Shown piece by piece: positions 1,079-56,726 of a DNA stretch of 64,000 nt (position 1 is the first letter of the stretch; every line of letters begins with the position of its first letter). The position numbers and the translations under genes were made by a program. Under the pieces are notes generated by a model, which was not told the DNA's origin, ran no database searches, and was given only the letters and a program-made list of their open reading frames with translations. Source of the DNA: the human T2T-CHM13v2.0 reference genome, Homo sapiens; the NCBI RefSeq assembly GCF_009914755.1, contig NC_060938.1. One strand, written 5' to 3'.

Positions 1079-3337
1079 CTGGGATACTCATAATCAATCC
1101 CTAATGACTAATGACCAATTTTCGATAATAATAAACTATATAATCAAATATTATACACAAATTCATTGATAGTGTTTTCTGCCAGCCTGTAAGTGCCACA
1201 CCTGAAAAAACTTCAAACTTTAGTGTAGTTTCCATTTGGATCACCTGGGGGAAGTTTTGCACTATGGATCCGTGGGCTCCATTCCGGATATACTCATACA
1301 GAACGTCTGCACATGGAGCTCAGGATTCTGCATTTTCAAGCATTTCCTCAAGTGGTTCTGAAACAACCTGTCTCCAGCCCAACTTTGAGATCCATTTTTT
1401 ACCAAACTCTGGCTTCAGAAGCCTTCATGTACATCGGAAGTAATCTCAGTGTGGGGAAATTCCAAAGCACAGGAAGCGATGATACCATTTGCATTATTAC
1501 CCAGATGATTCTAGCTACATACACCTATTATCCAGCATTTATGTCTTGATATGAGGCTTCTATTCAGTTGACCCTATTGATATCCAAGTGTACACAACTG
1601 ACCTGTCAGGCTATAGCAACACTTCACTTATATGTAGGGAGAATTTGTGCAGGGCTTAGCTGAAGCTCATCATGGGGTATGAATTGACTTGGTCTTATTG
1701 CTATAACCCTTGGGTTCAGAAGACACTGAACAAATGCTTAAGAAACTGTTTTAGGTTAATGAATGGGGATATATTTAACTCCTCAGATAGCCAAAGAATC
1801 AAGAAGAAGGGATTGAGCTGGATGGCCCAATAGAAGTGTCCATTGATTGCACCCCCACACATACCAGCAGAAACACCACATTTAACAACAACTATCTACA
1901 CACAAAAAAGCACCTACATAGGAAATGAAAATCAAGTCAACAATCATAGTACCTATTTTAACTTCATATCACTGAAAGAGGCACTGAAGAGGTTAGGAAA
2001 GACAATTTTGAATCACTGAGGCCACCACTCCCCCATCTCCCAACAGCCACCACATGGAGCTGAGACAGAATCTGAGTGCATGGGGGAGGGAGAGTTTAGC
2101 AATTGTGGAAATCTGCATTGAACTCAGTGCTGCCCTGTCACAGCCCATCCACAGAAGGAGCATTTAGACCACCTTAGCCAAAGGGGAATTGCCTATCCCA
2201 GCGGTCAGACACTGAGTTTGGGAAAGCTTTGCCACAGTAGGCTAAAGTGCTCTGGGGTCCTAAATATATTTGAAACTCAATCTAGGCCACAAGAACTACA
2301 ACTACAAGGCAAGTCCCAGTGCTGTGCTGAGCTCAGAGCCAGTGGACCTAGACACCACTAGTGTGACACTTGTCAGGGCAGCTAAGGGAGTGCTTGCACA
2401 ACCGCTCCCCCAACCCCAGGCAGCACAGCTCACAGCAATGAAAGTGACTCCTTCCTTCTGCTTGAGGAAAGGAGAGGAAAGAGTAACTAGGACTTTGTCT
2501 TACATCGTAAAGATCAGCTCAGCCACAATAGGATAGGGCACCAGTCAGAGTCATGAAGCCACCATTTCAGGCACTCGCTCCTGAAGGACATTTCTAGACA
2601 CACCCTGCACCAGAAGAAAACCCACTGCCTAGAAGGAAAGGACCTAGTCCTTCCAGGATTCATCACCTGCTGACTGAAGAACCCTCAGGCCCTAAATAAC
2701 CAGCAGCAATACCCAGTAGCACACTCCATGGGCCTTAGGTGAGACTCTGAGATATGCTGGCTTCAGGTGAGACCCACCATACTTACAGCTGGGGCAGTCA
2801 TGAAGGGACAATTCTTCTGCTTGAGAAAAGCAGAGGGAAAAGTAAAGGGGACTCTGTCTTGCAGCTTAGATAGCAGCTCAGCTACAGCGGGGTAGAGCAC
2901 CAAGCCGGCTCTTGGATCCCCAATTCCAGATCTTGGCTCTTGGCTGGCATTTCTGGACCTGCCCTGGGTCAGAGGGGAATCCACTTCCCTGAAGGGTGAG
3001 TCCCAGGCCAGGCAGCATTCACCACAAGCTGACTGCAGAGCTCCGGGGCCTTAAGGGAACATTGGCAGTAGCCTGGCAGTATTCCTCTTGAGCCTGTGTT
3101 GGAGGTAGCAGTGGGGAGAGGCTCCTCTGCCCGTGGAAAGGTGAAGGAAGACTGGAAGGACTCCATCTCATGGCTTGAGTGCAAGCTCAGCCACAGTAAA
3201 ACAGAACACCACGTAAACTTCCCAGGTTTTTTACTTTGGTCCCTGGCTCTCAGACAGAACCTCTGGACATGCCTGGGCCTAGAGGACCTCATGACCCTGA
3301 AGGGAAGGACACAGCCTGGCTGGTATTGCCACCTGCT
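1079..3337 (+). repeat. Recent segmental duplication, copy 1 (copy 2 = 27181-29419)
   Basis: Near-identical from ctgggatactcataatcaatccc to ...tattg(c/t)cacctgct; the ORF track gives near-identical peptides (1313 vs 27414, 2270 vs 28370). Confidence 0.95.
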
Positions 3338-3365
3338 CTAGGACCTTGTAGAGCTTTAGGGCCTG
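1806..3365 (+). mobile_element. Truncated L1M/L1MA-type 5' UTR fragment
   Basis: Identical to the 5' part of the L1 at 27907-32922, which goes on into ORF1/ORF2; this copy stops at about 3365. Confidence 0.75.
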
Positions 3366-3714
3366 AGGCCCTTACTTCCAAGAAAGGAATAACTCTTTTC
3401 TAGTGAGCTGAACTGTAAAGCTCATAACACAAGTAGGTCCTCAGTGCATATTCACTTCCTTTCCTTCTTACCTGAGGTGCTGCAGTGTGAATCTGAAGGT
3501 GGCAGGTTCAACACTAAAGTGACGGACTGCAAGAAAGTTATGGTAGACTCAGAAATCTGTTCTTCAACATTTAGACTGTATTTATGCTGGCTGGATTTTC
3601 TGTTTATTCACCTATTATTCTCTACCCCTGTCAGCAACCAAGAAACTCGCAGCCCATCTCACGCTGTCTTAAAGGGAACCAAGAAGTTTTGGACTCTTGG
3701 CCTGCAGGAAGCAT

Positions 3715-3800
3715 GCAGCGCGGCGCCCCCTGCCGGCCAATACAACGGCCACGGGAACTGGCAGACCACTGAGGCTCTGGGCGGGGCGGAGTTGCCCCTT
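3715..3800 (-). promoter_or_regulatory. CpG-rich patch with CTCF motif and GC box
   Basis: 3721-3739 reverse complement is TGGCCGGCAGGGGGCGCCG, close to the CTCF consensus TGGCCACCAGGGGGCGC; GGGCGGGGCGG at about 3779-3789. Confidence 0.7.
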
Positions 3801-4352
3801 CTCCTCCCACTTCTCTAGCAGCGGCTTCTTCTGGTGACACCCCGGGAGCCACAGGGATTTGGTTCCCTAAAGGAAGCGGTTTCCCACCAGGGTATCGTCC
3901 CTAATACCCTCCGAAGGAGTCCATTGAGGAGAAAGGAACAGAACGTCTGGCAGAATGCAGAAGGACCCTATGATCCAGGACATGTAGCGCCAGCCATCAG
4001 GAGGTTTTATGAGAGCAGCTGGTGGGAAGATCAGTCCCAGGAGAAGGGGTTTGTCTAGCAGCTTGGTTGGAGCAAGCCTTTTCCAGAGAATTATTTCCGT
4101 AATTCAGGCTCCCTCCCAACCCTCCACTGCCACCTTATCCTCCACCAAAAGCCCTGACACTGTGGCAGGGATAGGGGACGTGGGGTTGGTGGGGAACAGG
4201 CTGTAAGAAAGACGCGGGAGCCTATATGTGTCTGGGAAAAATGAGGGGTCCACGTGCAAGGGAAGAAGCATTTACAAAGAAGACTTTGACAGTGCTGCAA
4301 AGATTTGAAGGCGCAGGGTGCAAGTCATTCAGGTGCCGGTGTCAGGAGGAAC

Positions 4353-4781
4353 CTAGCCATCCAGGTGAACAGATGCCCCCTTCTTGCAGCCCACTCGCAT
4401 GGGCCTGGTGGACTCCTTCTTATTTTTGGTAGTGGCAGTGAAGAGGTCGGGTCCCTGCGCTGGCAAAGCAGTCAGTGACATTGACATCATGAGTACTGTT
4501 GCGGCAGCTGCACATGGAGGGGCTGTTGGTACAGGGCAGTGGTGGAGTTCTGCAGAAATCTGCTATGGTGGTCAGATTCTATGAATGAATGTGTGGATCT
4601 GCTCGCATTTACCCCTATAGATCAGCCAACTGCGCCTCATCATCACATCACAGTATCGGTGGTGTCCTCTAGGGACCCACGACCTGGGGTTGTCTATATG
4701 TCGTGTTAAGAAGGGCAGGGCTGGAGTGAAGACAGTTAGGTCCAAAAGGAGGAAGAGGAGGAGGGTCCATATCAGATTCAT
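4353..4781 (-). pseudogene. RNase A-superfamily pseudogene (non-eosinophil type), two frameshifts
   Basis: Reconstructed: MNLIWTLLLFLLLDLTVFTPALPFLTRHIDNPRSWVPRGHHRYCDVMMRRSWLIYRGKCEQIHTFIH/fs/NLTTIADFCRTPPLPCTNSPSMCSCRNSTHDVNVTDCFASAGTRPLHCHYQ/fs/NKKESTRPMRVGCKKGASVHLDG*. Signal peptide, all 8 structural Cys positions, His12- and His119-equivalents present, CKxxNTF degenerate to CEQIHTF; acceptor ...ttcacaag|aaacATG. Confidence 0.9.
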
Positions 4782-5062
4782 GTTTCTTGTGAAAGCATTT
4801 CAAAGAAGAGCAGAGTCAAAAGAGCAAGCCATGGTCCCTTGTCCTGTTCCTAAGAAGTCTTGGCCCAACACTTAGTGTTCGCAGTTCTCCCCTCCTGCCA
4901 TTTCTACACTTATTCTTCGTGTACTCATGGCAACAAGTGTTCTCACATCCTTCTTCCACCTCCTTGTCAATAACGGAGATGGCTACCACCCTCTCAACCC
5001 TTTATGGGATTATCCTATGTACAAGGTTATTTCCAAACCCCAAAGTGATTCTTGCTCCTTAC

Positions 5063-22782: not shown

Positions 22783-24719
22783 CCACAATTTTAAAGGATG
22801 AATATGGTTGCAAATTGGGCAGGTTATGTATGGTCTGAGTTATTTCTTAAGACACTGCAACAAGTCTGATGCGTCATAAGCACAGATGTCTCCAGAAGCC
22901 AGGCAGGTGTCATTACTGAACAGACAGGATGAAAGTCAGGAGGCAGAGATGGAGTCAGAGAACAGCCCCGAGCTAGAGCCCCTTCCACAGAGGCAGCTTT
23001 ACCCAGCTCTAATTGATACCACACAGCAACGGAGACACAGTGCACCAACCAACATCATGTGATTTTTAAAGATAAGACAGTAATGAAAACTTTTAGTGAA
23101 CTATTCCAATGTCAAACTTTACCTTCCAAACCAAACATTATAAATAGCACTGTATATGCTGAAAAGAGGCACTGTTTAGCCAAGTACCTGCCCTGGGGCT
23201 GCAGTCTATGTCTTTTGCCTCATACTATAGACACTTGAGTGCAAGTCTTTCTACCCAGTGTGTCTGTCAGCATCACAGAGCGGATACTCTACGTATCATT
23301 CACCTTTACATTCTCATCACCTGCAAAAATGATCTCCACACAATATACATGAAAAAAGAATTTGCTTCATGATAAAGCTGCTAATGAATGTCGGCCAGAA
23401 GAGGACTTCAAGGCAGAGCAATATTAGCTGCGCATTGAGTCCTCACTGGGTCACCATTGTGTCCACATTTACCTAAGGACTCCAGTGATAAAATTATTGC
23501 ATTTCTAAATGACAGGAAAATTGGATGGTAGTAAAAATTATGTAGATTAACTGTTGGAAGGTATATTATATCATTTAAGGGTCTAATATCAATTTTCTAA
23601 TCTGAAAGCTAGACCAGATTTAACATCTCTTAGTACTCAGGTCTTACCACTGCAATTCACTTCCCACCTCTGTACAATTTCCCCACATCATCCCCTGTGC
23701 CCAGAATGCTCATCTCTTCCCTAAAGTCCCTGAAAACTCCCTGCTTATCTTTTAGGGCCCTGCTGAAATCAAACTTTTTTTTTTGAAGTCTTCCTTGTCC
23801 CTCAAGCCAAGTGATTTCCTTCACCCTCGGCGTCCCCATGAAACCATGTTCACACAAGTGTAATACAATTATGTGTCTACAATTACTTTCCTGTATGTCT
23901 CTGAGGGCCAAGAATAAATGTATGCTTTGTGTATCAAACTGTACACTTGACCTCTATACTTTCAGGAATACAGTGCTCTGTCCTTAAATGTTCATTTGTA
24001 AATACAGAACCATTTTCTTGTTAATATCACAAAATGAAACTTACCAGGAAGATGAATGACAACCCCAGAACACAGTGTTTTGTAGAAAATACCATAGGCT
24101 GAAAAGATCACAGGAATACCGAGTGCTAGGTTGGAATCTTTCATGACACCAAATGTTCATTCATTCTCTGCCAGACTTTACAACTGTCCTCGGTGTGTTT
24201 TTAGGTTGTGTAACTTTACACAAAGTGGAAGCAATAATCAGGGCAAGACTTAAGAGAAAGTGGATCCAATGCAAGAGGAGCAAAGGAAAAAATCCCTCAA
24301 GTATGTGTAGCAGATTGTTTTAATTATCTACAGAATCTTGTGCCCTAAGAAATTAATAGCTCAAGTTTCCAGCAAGAGTGGTGGATGAGATGGAGAGCAT
24401 TTGTGTGAGAGAGAACCAAGGATATTACTAAAAATGAAAGGGAAGCTGGGTTTCTCCTGGGCAAACAGCCCTCAGTGGCTCTATTTGTTCTAACTACTAT
24501 GCCTGCCTTCATGTACTTTGGTCATTTAGTGGCCTGCCAGAGGACAGTTATAAAATCTGTGGTCATTCTGCAGGCAGCATATAGTTTTCATCCAGAGTTT
24601 GGATCTAACCAGCAAAACTCTGTCTTACACAGGATGACTTGGAATTAGAGTCCTTATAGCAGAAAGAGCAGCAGGGCTGTCCTTGGGTATCCGTTGCTCA
24701 GCCAAGTCATCAAATAAAA

Positions 24720-24921
24720 AGGATGATTGCACAAGTGGACTATGTACCAATCTGTGGGTTTCTGCATGGCCAAGAGCCAGACCCTCCCTCTGGGCTCTGC
24801 TGGCCCAACCCACCAAGGGATGCTTTATTTAAACAGTTCCAAGTAGGGGAGACCAGCTGCCCCTGAACCCCAGAACAACCAGCTGGATCAGTTCTCACAG
24901 GAGCTACAGCGCGGAGACTGG
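24720..24921 (+). promoter_or_regulatory. RNASE2: RNASE2 proximal promoter and non-coding exon 1
   Basis: C/EBP-type ATTGCACAA 24726-24734, CCAAT 24747-24751, TATA-like TTTATTTAAA about 24824-24833, donor TGG|GTAAGT at 24921/24922. Confidence 0.82.
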
Positions 24922-51600: not shown

Positions 51601-52406
51601 AACTAATTAATTAATTAATTAAAACTTGCTTAATAATTTAAGGAATTAAGGAATTCCACAGAATGAGATGGCTAAGTCCTATTAGCTCTACCTTCAGTCC
51701 TGTTCAGGTCAATATTTGTGTCCATATTCATATAAGGGCATTAACAACAACATTGCATTTTCAGATGACAAGAATGTAAAAATATAGTGAAAAATATGTG
51801 AATTAATTTTGTTGGAAGATTACATACAGTTCAAGGGTCTAATTCCAATGTTTCTCACCTAGAACTTGACCCAGTGATTTAACACCTCTAACCACTCACG
51901 CCTTCCCTACCTTCAATACACTTCCCCATCTCTGTACATTTTCCCATGCCAATCTTTTTGCATGCACTGTCCGTCCCTTCCTGAATGCCCCAGCAAACCC
52001 TTGCTCACCCTCATGACCCTGCTCAGGTGGAGCCTCCTTGTAGAAACCTTCCTAGACCCAATGGGCAAAGTAACTTCCTCCATCTCTGTGCTCCCAAAAA
52101 GCAATGTTCATATAAGTGTTATTGCTTCTATCACATATTTAGTTTCTCTGCTTCTCCATAAGCTACTTAAGGACCAAGACTACGTTTCATGTATCTTAAT
52201 ATATCCTGTGACTAACACAGTTTCAGGAATAGAGTGCGCAGTACATAAATGCCTCATTTATAAAGATTAAATTCCCATTTTACATAGTGAAATACAAGCC
52301 TAGGAATGTAAATGACAGCTGTGTAGAAAGAAGCACAAATGTGAATGAATGCAAGATTTTGGAAATCTAAGTTGGAGTTGTTTATACATTAGATATTCAT
52401 TCTTTT

Positions 52407-54476
52407 TTTTTTAATCAAGAACAAACTTTGTTGAACTTTGTACCCTATTAACAGAAGTTAAAAAAAAAAAAAAAAAGAACAGACTCTGTTTTACTAAACC
52501 CTCAGCTGTTGTCCCTCCTTCCCAGCTGGGGCTGTGACTGGAGCCCTTTTCCACAGCCTTGCTGCATCTTCTCCTTAGCACCTGTTCCACCTGCCAGGAA
52601 GTAGCTAGTTTCCATGTCTCTGTGCTCCAGTTTATGGGCTCCTCCCAGGTCTGACCATCAGCAGCCTCCTCCTCATCTTCCTTTATACATAAGTCCTCAG
52701 GAAAAGGTATGCTGGCCTCTGGTTCTGAAGCCACCATACCCTTATCTGGCTTGCTATCTTGTAGCAGCTTCACGGTTTGTAGCTGCATGTTCAGAAGCTC
52801 TTACGGCTCCAGCCAGAGTAGTCACACACTCAAAAAGGGGGTCCAGCGGGGCCACCAGATTGTCCAGGTGCTGCTCTGCCTGGATCAGCTGTTGCTCCAA
52901 CTGCAATGGGTGCTTCTTGCCTGACTCCTCTTGGAGAACTGCAGCTTCATCTTTCCCCTGTTGTGGAAGAAAAAAGGGGCAATACTGCAGCAAAATTGTT
53001 CTGCTCCATCACCTCAGTCTCCAAAGCCAGTAAAGAGAGGAGTGTCATTTAAGGTAGAGAATGCTATTGGGATTTTACCTCAGAGAATCACAATTACTTC
53101 TAGTCTAGTTCCTCACCCAGCACATGAAGCAACATGTCATCGTGTCCCACACATGGTCATTCGGTCTGCTGAAACACCTCCAGGAATGAGCAGCTCTCTC
53201 GCGTTTGATTGAGCTCTGGTTGTTAGACAGTTCATATACAAAGCCAGAATTTGTCCTTCATGTATCTTCTTTCCATAGCCCTGATTAGAGCCTTCCAAAA
53301 TAATGGCTCTTCAACGTGATAGTTCCTCAGGAATTTGAAGACAATGGGCATACCCTTGCTCCCTTTCCTGAGTTTTTTCTGGTTTAATATCTTTGATCTT
53401 TTCAGTCAGGGCTCATTTTGCATAGTTTTCTCTGGTTGCTTTACTGAACATATAGCGCTCTTAAGGCAGTTCTGGGAGACAAAAATTCTCCAGGAATGTT
53501 CTGGTCAGTAGATAAAGCACAACACCTTGTTCCTACCATTGATTTGGGAAGTAGGTTGTTGGTTGTCACATCACACCATAAACTTATTAGTCAACGGGTA
53601 GGCCTAAGTCTCTCTCATAAGTGCTGCTGCTAAGAAATATCTTCTTCCAGACTGTACTCACGCCGAAGGATAGAATTTACTAAACTATCCTTGTTAAATT
53701 TCATTATTAAATCCAGTCACTCATCCTAGCCTGTCATGTCTACCTGGGATCATTATTAGCTATCTCTTCTAGTTTCATACATCAAAATTGGTTCAATCGG
53801 TTTTATTTTCTAATGCAAATAAACAATAGGGTCAGAGCTGAAGATACTGTCCTAGAAAGTTTACTTTCCAAAATGTACCATCAACTCATATTTAAGGGCC
53901 TCTCTCCCTAGGAGAACATGAGACCACTTGATGTCTTGAACTCTAGAAACACTATGGTTGCAGCAATCAACCCCTTGTGCCACAGTTGGCCCCACTTTAG
54001 TAGTATGAACACTAGCTGAGTGTCCAGCTCCACCAGTTGCTGCTCTGGGTGACCTCAAGCAAGTGGCTACTCTTTATCAGATTGTAGGAAAATTAAATGT
54101 GATGGTCATTATTCATTTACAGTTTACCACGTGCCTTCCACATTCAGCCTTACCTCGCTGAATCCTTAAAATTACTCTATAATGTTGGAGGCCAATCAAC
54201 TATTATCTTCATTTTACAGACAGCGGAAACTGTATCTTGCTCTCAGTACTATGGTGCCCCCATGAGAGATGCAGACTCAGGGCACCCAGACCCCCAGCCA
54301 TCTCTGCATCTGCAACACTTATACAACACAAAAGCCACAATGGCTGAAGTGTACAGCATTCCCAAAAGCAGCACCCTGGCCCTGGCCCCCTCATGCTGGT
54401 CCTTGAACAGCAGTTGCCCGCATTCTGTGGCCCCAGGGCCTACATGGGCCGGGTTCCCTGTGGAAGGAGGGCAAAG
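52407..54476 (-). pseudogene. Semi-processed, 5'-truncated retrocopy of CCDC107
   Basis: 17-bp TSD TAGATATTCATTCTTTT (52390-52406 and 54477-54493), poly(A) on the minus strand. 52957-52477 encodes GKDEAAVLQEESGKKHPLQLEQQL..LDPLFECVTTLAGA/fs/ELLNMQLQTVKLLQDSKPDK...EDEEE..WEEPINWSTETW...WEGGTTAEGLVKQSLF, matching the CCDC107 C-terminal two-thirds as recalled. Confidence 0.85.
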
Positions 54477-54892
54477 TAGATATTCATTCTTTTACAGATT
54501 TTACATAAAGATCTGTGTGTTTTTTTTTTTTAGGTTTATGTTAGTTGACATGGAATGGAGGCATTAATCAGGTCAAGACTAAAATCTAGAGAAGATAAAT
54601 CCAATGGATATGGAGCAGTGGAATCACTTCAGGAGGAACTGAACAGACTGCTTTAATTCACTGCAGAATTTTGAACAGCAAGAAATCCAAAGACTCAAGT
54701 TTCCAGCATAGAGGTGTGATGAGATGGAGAATGTTTGTATGAAGAGAGAAACAGGGGTGTTGCTAAAAACAAAAAAGAAGCTGGGTTCCTCCTTGGAATG
54801 GCCCTCCCTTGCTCTACTTGTTTTGGGTTTTAGGCTCCCCTTTATACAACATGGCTCTTTGGCGTGCTGGAGTAGGATTAAAAAGAAGAAAG

Positions 54893-55294
<402 letters not shown>

Positions 55295-56726
55295 CTATCA
55301 GAGCTTGAACAAAAACAGCTCCACCAAATTCAAAGTAGAAATTTGGAACAAGATTTGAACAAGAAAAAAAATACCACTTCCCATAACACAGTCTCCTCCT
55401 CTCCTAGCTTTAGCCCTTAACACAGAGTGTGGCACATCTAACATGGTCAGTAAAGAATTCCACCAACTCAAGAACGAAAAATAAACTCCCTATCATGGAT
55501 AAATGTCTTTCCCCATTATATATCTTTCTTTCCTCTTTATCTTCTCTTTCTTCATCCCTTTCTTCTCACATTTTTTCTTCATTTTCTGTATAATAGCAAG
55601 TCTCCTAGGCCAGGTGGCTGTGCTGGCCATTCCCAGTAGTTCTCAAAAACACAAACAGATCCTTCTGGAAAGTTCTGTCTTGAATTGGTCCCTGTTGCAG
55701 GACAGTACATTAGAAATGGTATTTCTAGAAGGCTTGGAGAAGTAGATGATAAGCCAGAGTTTCCTTCTTGGGATTCCTCTCCCGAGTCTGAACTGGAAAC
55801 CATTGACCTAGTTGTTAAACAATGGAGGCCCCCAACCCAGAACATTTTAATGGGATAACTTTTAGATTTTCTTGAGAAACATGAACTGAGAATAGAAAGA
55901 CTTCTACATTCTCTCACTGCCCTGGCCATTCCGGTCCCTATTTCAGGGTCTCAGTCCCTCAGGAGAGATATACGAGACCCCCAATGGGTGTCCAATCCTT
56001 GGATTTTCCTCTAAGACTTTATCCATGTGTTAAGAGTCCACAATGCACCTCCAAAGAAGCTCCTGTGTGACCACCATTCATCTTCTGAGGATATCAGCGA
56101 TCCTTTCATGCCATCCCATGCCAAGACTAACACTGCTCTGTGGTGATCCCCCATCCTATATCTGTAGGAAGCCATGCTGGGTCTGCCCGAGCCAGAGTTT
56201 TCAAAATCTATAATCCCTCCAGAACCTCCTTGCTTTCCTCAACATAGATTTTTGCCAAAGGAGATCAGATCCAATTGGAAGATCCCTCCCCCGCAGCAGA
56301 ATACTTTGTAATTGGATTAGTCTCAACAGCAACAGTAGTTCTGGCCTTGAATATGAGTTAATCAGCCAAGTCACAACACAAGAAAGCTGACTGCACCAGA
56401 AAACCCTGTACAATCCGTGAATTTCTTCATGGTTGAGACTCAGATGAATCATCATGTTGATCTGACTCATGCTTCTCCCTGCCTTAGGCCAAGAGACTGA
56501 GGCTTCACCTGGGATCTGCCTCTTTCCCACTCAAGAGTCAAATGAGCCCCCAAGGAGTAAGAAAAAAATGTGATTGATTCTGATTTGCACCCCAGTCTTT
56601 TTTTAATTTATCATAAAGAATCAAATATTTACATTAGAAGATATCTTGTGCTGTGAAAAAAAAGGAATAAACGAAGGGAGGAAGAAAAGAAGTGGGAGGG
56701 TGGGAGAGAAAGGAAACAATAGAATA

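What the first reader, a model, noticed from the sequence alone, without database searches (positions are those of the whole stretch)
52390..54493. Semi-processed CCDC107 retrocopy that retains an intron
Seen: 2.07-kb insert with an exact 17-bp TSD, poly(A) and an L1-type GT/AAAA nick site; the paralogue near 24150-24200 shows the empty site. Only the 3' 0.55 kb is exon-like; directly upstream is an intact acceptor (cccttttttcttccacaacag|GGGAAAGAT at 52958/52957) and 1.5 kb of intron-like DNA with old MIR/L2-like pieces. From memory of CCDC107, the downstream introns are spliced out and the GEGSGG...SPHT segment is skipped. Inference: a captured partially spliced RNA that records splicing order and an ancestral intron.
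Basis: partly seen in the sequence, partly recalled or inferred. Interest (0 to 1): 0.7.

Follow-up and report, generated by a model that had tools for sequence, protein, structure and literature searches.

The report
Intron-retaining CCDC107 retrocopy, dead pseudogene
This is an old, dead copy of the CCDC107 gene made by reverse transcription of an incompletely spliced RNA, so it still carries one whole intron; this type of pseudogene is rare but already known.

Summary
The insert is real. Window 52407-54476 (sense on the minus strand) lies between an exact 17-bp target-site duplication and maps to one parent only, chr9:35679215-35681832.

It is colinear with that gene. It holds the last 19 nt of intron 1, exon 2, all of intron 2 (1,352 bp), then exons 3, 4 and 5. 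Introns 3 and 4 and an 81-nt in-frame intron inside exon 5 are removed exactly at GT-AG borders.

Three corrections:
- The 5' end is not all intron: exon 2 sits at 54310-54457.
- The A17 run at 52460-52476 is on the wrong strand to be the tail. It belongs to a nested 44-bp plus-strand insertion with its own 14-bp duplication (12 of 14). The true tail is the short run at 52407-52412.
- The RNA ended 1-2 nt after the stop codon, not at the end of a long 3' UTR.

The copy lacks an Alu that now sits in the parent intron. It differs from the parent intron at 18-19% of sites, and its reading frame is broken.

RefSeq annotates only the spliced 477 bp. This is a new member of a known kind, of modest interest.

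The parts
52390..52406 (.). Left copy of the outer target-site duplication, TAGATATTCATTCTTTT.
   Evidence: Exact 17/17 with 54477-54493. 0 of 300 simulations reached 17.
52407..52412 (-). Remnant poly(A) tail of the retrocopy: T6 on the plus strand, A6 in sense, continuous with the AAAA of the duplication.
   Evidence: Read. It abuts the TTTT end of the duplication, as target-primed reverse transcription predicts.
52413..52432 (-). Last 20 nt of the copied RNA (sense AACAAAGTTTGTTC TTGATT), cut off from the rest by the nested insertion. 52419-52432 is also the left copy of the inner duplication.
   Evidence: The best local match of the 47-mer within parent L007 4800-5400 is L007 4819-4837, exactly where the main homology ends; 18 of 200 shuffles scored as high.
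52433..52476 (+). Nested later insertion in plus orientation: 27 nt of unknown source followed by A17.
   Evidence: Flanked by GAACAAACTTTGTT (52419-52432) and GAACAGACTCTGTT (52477-52490), 12 of 14 identical; 0 of 5000 shuffles reached 12. The tail abuts the right copy.
52477..52718 (-). Exon 5, the part after the 81-nt internal intron. Includes the right copy of the inner duplication (52477-52490) and the hexamer AGTAAA (52490-52495).
   Evidence: Aligns to L007 4592-4832, 211 of 250 columns identical.
52719..52826 (-). Exon 5, the part before the internal intron. Its junction to the next part is exact, with parent 4511-4591 removed.
   Evidence: 94 of 108 identical. Junction coordinates. 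Contains a 2-nt frameshift deletion.
52827..52896 (-). Exon 4. It lacks one of the two 21-nt tandem units present in the parent.
   Evidence: 62 of 70 identical with a 21-nt gap. Intron 3 (95 nt) and intron 4 (98 nt) are absent.
52897..52957 (-). Exon 3 (GKDE...).
   Evidence: 51 of 61 identical to L007 4053-4113.
52958..54309 (-). Retained intron 2 of CCDC107 (1,352 bp), in its state before the Alu insertion. The acceptor is intact. The donor now reads CAG|AT.
   Evidence: Colinear with L007 2380-3499 plus 3797-4052. 1061 of 1317 aligned columns identical, K2P 0.23.
54310..54457 (-). Exon 2 (148 nt in the copy, 152 nt in the parent). It has lost nearly all its CpGs.
   Evidence: 104 of 149 identical. 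CpG count is 19 in the parent and 2 in the copy. Contains a 1-nt frameshift.
54458..54476 (-). Last 19 nt of intron 1 with its acceptor (CTTTGCCCTCCTTCCACAG). This is the 5' end of the copy.
   Evidence: 14 of 19 identical to L007 2209-2227.
54477..54493 (.). Right copy of the outer target-site duplication.

Best explanation
**What it is.** An L1-mediated, minus-strand, semi-processed retrocopy of CCDC107 (parent on chr9), now a dead pseudogene.

**The template RNA.** Introns 3 and 4 and the 81-nt in-frame intron inside exon 5 had already been spliced out. Intron 2 (about 1.37 kb before a later Alu entered the parent) was still present, as was at least the 3' end of the 90-nt intron 1. The RNA was cleaved and polyadenylated at a weak proximal site 1-2 nt after the stop codon.

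**The insertion.** L1 endonuclease nicked TTTT|AC upstream of METTL17. The T-run primed on the tail. The cDNA was either copied as far as, or truncated at, 19 nt upstream of exon 2. A 17-bp duplication was made.

**After the insertion.**
- A 27-nt + A17 fragment inserted in the opposite orientation 6 nt from the end of the copy, duplicating 14 bp.
- The CpG-rich exon 2 decayed.
- The frame was broken.

**Shown versus inferred.** Shown: single parent, colinearity, exact intron removal, both duplications, absence of the parent's Alu, disablements. Inferred: L1 as the agent, the proximal poly(A) site, the order of later events, and the age.
For: **Single parent**
- One search returned 6 matches: the insert itself plus 5 colinear pieces on chr9. 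Two candidates were found and both were scored.

**Parent gene model** (read, checked)
- All five introns are GT-AG.
- The joined exons give an 852-nt ORF of 283 aa with one terminal stop.
- The form without the 81-nt intron gives 771 nt and 256 aa.

**Alignment of the copy to the predicted template**
- Intron 1 end 14/19, exon 2 104/149, intron 2 861/1071 and 203/249.
- Exons 3, 4, 5a and 5b: 51/61, 62/70, 94/108 and 211/250.
- The three exon-exon junctions are exact.

**Hallmarks of retrotransposition**
- Outer duplication 17/17; 0 of 300 simulations reached 17.
- TTTT|AC nick site and a short A tail next to it.
- Insert absent from the colinear paralogue.

**Nested insertion**
- A 12/14 duplication flanks 27 nt + A17; 0 of 5000 shuffles reached 12.
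- Both copies share a C where the parent has T.

**Proximal poly(A) site** (read)
- Parent ACTAAA at L007 4815-4820 (AGTAAA in the copy), 19-20 nt upstream of the end of the copy.
- A TGTGTGTTTTTT run at L007 4851-4862, downstream of the proposed cleavage site.
- That this layout is typical of poly(A) sites is established knowledge, recalled.

**The parent's Alu came later**
- The Alu at L007 3500-3796 is flanked by AACCAAAG / ACCAGAG, and the copy holds that site once.

**Dead**
- No exon 1 and no ATG.
- Frameshifts of 1 nt and 2 nt, and one CAG-to-TAA stop.
- 26 synonymous versus 59 non-synonymous differing codons, out of 222 parent codons walked.
- The longest sense ORF is 125 aa.
Against: - The outer duplication is exact, although intron and parent differ at 17.8% of non-CpG columns. 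If both duplication copies drifted at that pairwise rate, 17/17 has a probability of about 0.036 (my arithmetic). So the copy may be younger than the divergence suggests, or the parent intron may evolve faster.
- The tail is only 6-10 A.
- The match of the last 20 nt to the parent's stop-codon region is weak on its own: local score 12, reached by 18 of 200 shuffles.
- The proximal poly(A) site rests on a minor hexamer and was not checked against transcript data.
- The source of the nested 27 nt is unknown.
- Pfam has no family for the parent protein (0 families). The name CCDC107 therefore rests on the RefSeq label of the pseudogene and on the unique parent.
Confidence: 0.9

Rival explanations
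1. Chimeric retrocopy. The intron-like 1.5 kb and the spliced 0.5 kb come from different RNAs or loci, joined when the reverse transcriptase switched templates.
For: L1 reverse transcriptase is known to switch templates (established knowledge, recalled). The 3' end of the insert is indeed composite.
Against: All of query positions 7-1999 map colinearly to one 2.6-kb stretch of chr9. The intron-exon 3 boundary is continuous, as in the parent. No second locus was found.
Confidence: 0.02
2. DNA-level duplication of the CCDC107 locus, followed by separate deletions of three introns.
For: The presence of an intron and of intron 1 sequence is what a DNA copy would show.
Against: Three deletions exactly at GT-AG borders. 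A 17-bp duplication at a TTTT|A site with an A tail. No promoter, exon 1 or 3' flank was copied. The copy ends 19-20 nt downstream of a poly(A)-type hexamer.
Confidence: 0.01
3. Only intron 2 was retained. The template was a full-length transcript that started inside intron 1, at a dispersed start site of the CpG-island promoter. The copy is then not truncated and intron 1 was never 'unspliced'.
For: The 5' end lies about 180 nt downstream of the ATG in very CpG-rich DNA: 19 CpG in the 152-nt exon 2. Promoters of this kind have broad start zones (established knowledge, recalled).
Against: No extra G or other cap mark at the junction. 5' truncation is common in L1-made copies (recalled). No transcript-start data were available here.
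Confidence: 0.3
4. The odd 3' end (T17 in sense plus 27 nt plus a repeated 14-mer) arose in the same retrotransposition event, through repeated template jumps or slippage of the reverse transcriptase, and not through a later nested insertion.
For: The motif occurs a third time in partial form: GAAC..TTTGT at the start of the 27-mer. No genomic source for the 27-mer was found.
Against: The arrangement duplication - body - pure A17 - duplication is the standard signature of an independent insertion, in the correct orientation. A U17 tract inside the template has no counterpart in the parent.
Confidence: 0.12

Closest known systems
Semi-processed (partially spliced) retrocopies, for example murine preproinsulin I
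   Same: Made from a partly processed pre-mRNA. Some ancestral introns are kept and others removed, with a poly(A) tail and flanking direct repeats. This is the definition and example in PMC3449122 (passages read).
   Different: Preproinsulin I also carried upstream regulatory sequence and is functional. This copy has no promoter and no exon 1, and its frame is broken.
The eight 'partially spliced pseudogenes' of the GENCODE pseudogene resource (PMC3491395, Table S3)
   Same: [quoted passage not shown]
   Different: The eight listed have parents FAM108A1 (six), TRMT11 and KCTD9. None is on chr14 and none derives from CCDC107 (supplement file 1, part 2). This one is therefore not in that list.
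Ordinary L1-mediated processed pseudogene (RefSeq LOC100130571 as annotated, 52481-52957)
   Same: Target-site duplication, A tail, TTTT|A nick site, new location, no promoter, exact loss of introns 3 and 4.
   Different: The annotated span covers only the spliced exons. The true insert extends about 1.5 kb further and holds intron 2, exon 2 and the end of intron 1.

Membership tests
L1-mediated retrocopy (processed pseudogene in the wide sense) | Flanking target-site duplication | tested here: met
   17/17 exact. 0 of 300 simulations reached 17.
L1-mediated retrocopy (processed pseudogene in the wide sense) | Poly(A) tail at the 3' end of the sense strand, next to the duplication | tested here: met
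   Short: A6 plus the AAAA shared with the duplication, at 52407-52412. The A17 is not this tail.
L1-mediated retrocopy (processed pseudogene in the wide sense) | Endonuclease-type nick site, TTTT/A | tested here: met
   The empty site reads ...CATTCTTTT|ACAG on the plus strand. The consensus itself is recalled.
L1-mediated retrocopy (processed pseudogene in the wide sense) | Single parent gene elsewhere in the genome; no parental promoter copied | tested here: met
   The only other match in the genome is chr9:35679215-35681832. The copy starts 177 nt downstream of the parent ATG.
L1-mediated retrocopy (processed pseudogene in the wide sense) | Lack of all parental introns | tested here: not met
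   Intron 2 is present whole and 19 nt of intron 1 are present. It is therefore not a fully processed copy.
Semi-processed / partially spliced retrocopy | At least one parental intron retained, colinear with its flanking exons | tested here: met
   Exon 2 - intron 2 - exon 3 is continuous. 1061 of 1317 intron columns are identical.
Semi-processed / partially spliced retrocopy | Other parental introns removed exactly at their splice sites | tested here: met
   Introns of 95, 98 and 81 nt, all GT-AG in the parent, are absent and leave exact junctions.
Functional retrogene | Intact reading frame or evidence of constraint | tested here: not met
   No start codon or exon 1. Frameshifts of 1 nt and 2 nt and one premature stop. 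26 synonymous versus 59 non-synonymous differing codons.

The most novel reading that the evidence does not exclude
The 5' end of the copy (L007 2209) lies 6 nt downstream of the A of CTGAC (L007 2200-2204), the best branch-point-like motif in the 90-nt intron 1. The boldest reading not excluded is that the template was a splicing intermediate: the intron 1 lariat still joined to exon 2 and the rest of the RNA. Reverse transcription would then have stopped at the 2'-5' branch. That would make this a genomic fossil of L1 machinery copying an RNA taken from inside a spliceosome, with the position of an ancient branch point recorded.
Probability: 0.03. Interest if true: 0.75.

Novelty: new member of a known kind. 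Interest (0 to 1): 0.3.

Why it matters
- **Annotation.** The RefSeq pseudogene span (477 bp) misses about 1.5 kb of the same insert, plus a nested insertion.
- **Fossil of an old RNA.** The copy is a dated snapshot of one ancient CCDC107 RNA. It shows intron 2 before the Alu entered the parent. It shows that splicing of the 81-nt in-frame intron in exon 5 was already in use. It points to a poly(A) site at the stop codon.
- **Rarity.** Copies that keep an intron are few: GENCODE listed eight in 2012. Each one adds evidence that L1 can copy incompletely spliced RNAs.
- **Function.** There is no sign that the copy does anything today.

Tried and rejected
- **Pfam on the parent's exon 5 and exon 3 translations:** 0 families. 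No family-level confirmation of the name was possible.
- **Is the nested 27-mer the 3' end of a high-copy element?** This idea came from a recalled likeness to L1 3' ends.
  - A degenerate motif found only the 27-mer itself in the window; 1 match against 0.40 expected by chance.
  - A 30-mer at up to 3 mismatches found only itself in the genome.
  - A 20-mer at up to 3 mismatches gave 276 places against 1076 for the reversed control.
  - The idea was rejected and the source stays unknown.
- **Is the 3' 47 nt a copy of the parent's long 3' UTR, direct or inverted?** No alignment beat shuffles on either strand of L007 4800-5400. On the plus strand 18 of 200 shuffles scored as high, and on the minus strand 98 of 200. 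The best plus-strand hit fell at the stop-codon region, which led to the nested-insertion model.
- **MIR/L2 content of the intron:** not testable here.
- **An RNase-like coding remnant in the paralogous stretch downstream of the insert:** tblastn with RNASE2 found only RNASE2 itself; every other hit had E > 3.
- **Literature:**
  - No paper holds LOC100130571 (0 papers).
  - Nine papers hold both CCDC107 and 'pseudogene'. By title and abstract start none is about this locus (listing only).
  - None of the 12 papers listed holds CCDC107.
  - PMC2584115 has no passage on retained parental introns for the six terms tried.
- **Dating in other primates:** not possible, because no primate genome is held.
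Full report
**The observation**

Window 52390-52406 and 54477-54493 are an exact 17-bp direct repeat, TAGATATTCATTCTTTT. It is the longest exact direct repeat in 52200-54700. None of 300 first-order Markov simulations of that region reached 17; their maximum was 15. Read once, the empty target is ...CATTCTTTT|ACAG on the plus strand, a TTTT|A site of the kind L1 endonuclease nicks (read; the consensus is recalled).

The flanks are an old duplicate of the stretch upstream of RNASE2:
- 51623-52281 matches 23359-24016 at 65%, and 54482-54884 matches 24159-24554 at 68%.
- With the insert taken out, the joined flanks align straight across the insertion point, at 182 of 306 columns.

So 52407-54476 (2,070 bp) is an insertion. 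The 'empty site' in the paralogue is real, but it is a distant one.

**Where the insert comes from**

A search of the window's own genome with the whole insert gave the insert itself plus five colinear pieces of one locus, chr9:35679215-35681832 on the plus strand, and nothing else. Two candidates were found and both were scored.

I fetched chr9:35677001-35684000 as L007 and read the gene from it. In L007 coordinates:

| Feature | Position |
|---|---|
| ATG | 2032 |
| Exon 1 | ends 2137 |
| Intron 1 | 2138-2227 (90 nt) |
| Exon 2 | 2228-2379 |
| Intron 2 | 2380-4052 |
| Exon 3 | 4053-4113 |
| Intron 3 | 4114-4208 |
| Exon 4 | 4209-4299 |
| Intron 4 | 4300-4397 |
| Exon 5 | from 4398 |
| TGA | 4837-4839 |
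| GT-AG intron inside exon 5 | 4511-4591 (81 nt) |

All five introns have GT-AG borders. The joined exons give an 852-nt frame of 283 aa with one terminal stop. Without the 81 nt, the frame is 771 nt and 256 aa.

Pfam has no family for this protein (0 families). The name CCDC107 therefore rests on RefSeq's label for the pseudogene at 52481-52957 and on this locus being its only relative.

**Anatomy of the copy**

The sense strand is the minus strand. Alignment to a template predicted from the parent (coordinates) gives, from 5' to 3':

| Window | Part | Identity |
|---|---|---|
| 54476-54458 | last 19 nt of intron 1, with its acceptor | 14/19 |
| 54457-54310 | exon 2 | 104/149 |
| 54309-52958 | whole of intron 2 | 861/1071 and 203/249 |
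| 52957-52897 | exon 3 | 51/61 |
| 52896-52827 | exon 4 | 62/70 |
| 52826-52719 | exon 5, first part | 94/108 |
| 52718-52477 | exon 5, second part | 211/250 |

The three junctions exon 3/4, exon 4/5 and across the 81-nt intron are exact. None of the 95, 98 or 81 nt of those introns is present.

The claim that only the 3' 0.55 kb is exon-like is wrong: exon 2 sits at the 5' end. It is hard to recognise because it was part of a CpG island and has gone from 19 CpG to 2, leaving it only 70% identical.

**The 3' end**

The conspicuous A17 at 52460-52476 is on the plus strand. In the sense of the copy it reads T17, so it cannot be the tail. The parent has no such tract.

The 14-mer just right of the A17, GAACAGACTCTGTT (52477-52490), recurs at 52419-52432 as GAACAAACTTTGTT. 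The two match at 12 of 14 positions, and none of 5000 shuffles of the 53-nt left region reached 12. Both copies correspond to the parent's AACAAAGTCTGTTT. Both also share a C where the parent has T.

The arrangement is duplication, then 27 nt, then pure A17, then duplication. That is the standard signature of a separate plus-oriented retro-insertion into the end of the CCDC107 copy. Its 27-nt body has no second copy in the genome within 3 mismatches of a 30-mer. It does not come from a high-copy family: a 20-mer gave 276 places against 1076 for a reversed control.

With the nested piece removed, the copy ends ...AGTAAA ACAGAGTCTGTTC TTGATT + A6-10. This corresponds to the parent's ...ACTAAA ACAAAGTCTGTTTTCATGAT, 1-2 nt past the TGA. 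The supporting alignment is weak by itself: score 12, reached by 18 of 200 shuffles. It does, however, fall exactly where the main homology stops.

The parent has a minor poly(A)-type hexamer 20 nt upstream (4815-4820) and a TGTGTGTTTTTT run 11-22 nt downstream (4851-4862). This is the usual layout of a cleavage site (recalled knowledge). I infer that the RNA used a weak proximal poly(A) site at the stop codon. No transcript data were available to test this.

**The 5' end**

The copy starts at L007 2209, inside intron 1. Three readings cannot be told apart here:
- truncation of a cDNA from an RNA that kept both intron 1 and intron 2;
- a transcript that began inside intron 1 of this CpG-rich promoter region;
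- least likely, a stop of reverse transcription near a lariat branch. The best branch-like motif, CTGAC, has its A 6 nt upstream of the start.

The donor of the retained intron reads CAG|AT in the copy and CAG|GT in the parent. Whether the change preceded the copying, and so caused the retention, or came later cannot be told.

**Age**

Intron 2 differs from the parent at 19.4% of 1317 aligned columns (K2P 0.23), and at 17.8% of 1262 non-CpG columns (K2P 0.21).

The parent intron now holds an antisense Alu (L007 3500-3796) flanked by AACCAAAG / ACCAGAG. The copy has that site once and no Alu. So the copy is older than that Alu.

As a local yardstick I compared 28 near-full-length Alus of the window and the parent's Alu with their majority consensus at non-CpG sites:
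- The parent's Alu is 4.5% diverged, the second lowest of 29.
- 25 of the window's Alus lie between 3.4% and 10.4%.
- Three lie at 14-17%.

Half of the intron divergence, about 9% per lineage, falls in the upper part of the main group and below the three oldest. If the main group is AluS and the oldest are AluJ (subfamilies not determined here, ages recalled), the insertion is roughly 40-60 million years old. This assumes equal rates in the two lineages.

One mild oddity remains. At 17.8% pairwise divergence, an exact 17-bp duplication has a probability of about 0.036 (my arithmetic).

**State today**

The copy has no exon 1 and no start codon, and a 1.35-kb intron full of stops. Aligned to the parent's codons it shows a 1-nt and a 2-nt frameshift and a CAG-to-TAA stop. 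It has 26 synonymous and 59 non-synonymous differing codons out of 222 parent codons walked. The longest sense ORF is 125 aa and runs into the nested insertion. It is a dead pseudogene.

**Comparison with what is known**

Semi-processed retrocopies made from partly processed pre-mRNA are a described class, with murine preproinsulin I as the textbook case (PMC3449122, passages).

The GENCODE pseudogene paper calls them hard to annotate and lists eight (PMC3491395, passage). Their parents are FAM108A1 (six), TRMT11 and KCTD9, so this one is not among them (supplement file 1, part 2). A long-read survey notes retained introns as rare corner cases (10.1101/2020.06.07.139212, one passage).

No paper in the library holds LOC100130571. 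Of the nine papers that hold both CCDC107 and 'pseudogene', none looks from its title or abstract start to be about this locus (listing only).

The pseudogene itself is annotated in RefSeq, but only its spliced 477 bp.

**Verdict**

It is a new member of a known, rare kind, with no sign of present function. Interest is modest.

Noticed in passing
L007 3500-3796 (chr9:35680500-35680796): An antisense Alu sits in intron 2 of the parent gene, flanked by AACCAAAG / ACCAGAG. It is absent from the retrocopy. It is 4.5% diverged at non-CpG sites from the majority consensus of the 28 window Alus and itself.
   Followed up: yes
L007 4211-4252; window about 52880-52896: Parent exon 4 holds a 21-nt unit (CAACAGCTGGCCCAG...) twice in tandem, and the retrocopy holds it once. 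This is either a slippage deletion in the copy or a 7-codon duplication in the gene after the copy was made.
   Followed up: partly
window 54520-54531 and 54526: According to the supplied annotation, an alternative METTL17 transcript exon starts at 54526. That is 33 bp from the right-hand duplication and lies inside a T12 run. The retrocopy's former CpG-island end faces it. No link was tested.
   Followed up: no
window 51623-52281, 54482-54884, 56244-56444 versus 23359-24781: The stretch upstream of METTL17 is an old duplicate (63-68% identity) of the stretch upstream of RNASE2. tblastn with RNASE2 finds no RNase-like coding remnant downstream of it.
   Followed up: partly
window 52390-52406 / 54477-54493: The outer duplication is exact, although the copied intron is 18% diverged from its parent. 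The probability is about 0.036 under equal drift. The nested, necessarily younger, insertion has a less perfect duplication (12/14).
   Followed up: partly
L007 4815-4862: The parent gene has a poly(A)-site-like layout around its stop codon: ACTAAA, then a CA 15-16 nt downstream, then TGTGTGTTTTTT 11-22 nt beyond the proposed cleavage point. This suggests a proximal site that would give an mRNA with almost no 3' UTR.
   Followed up: partly
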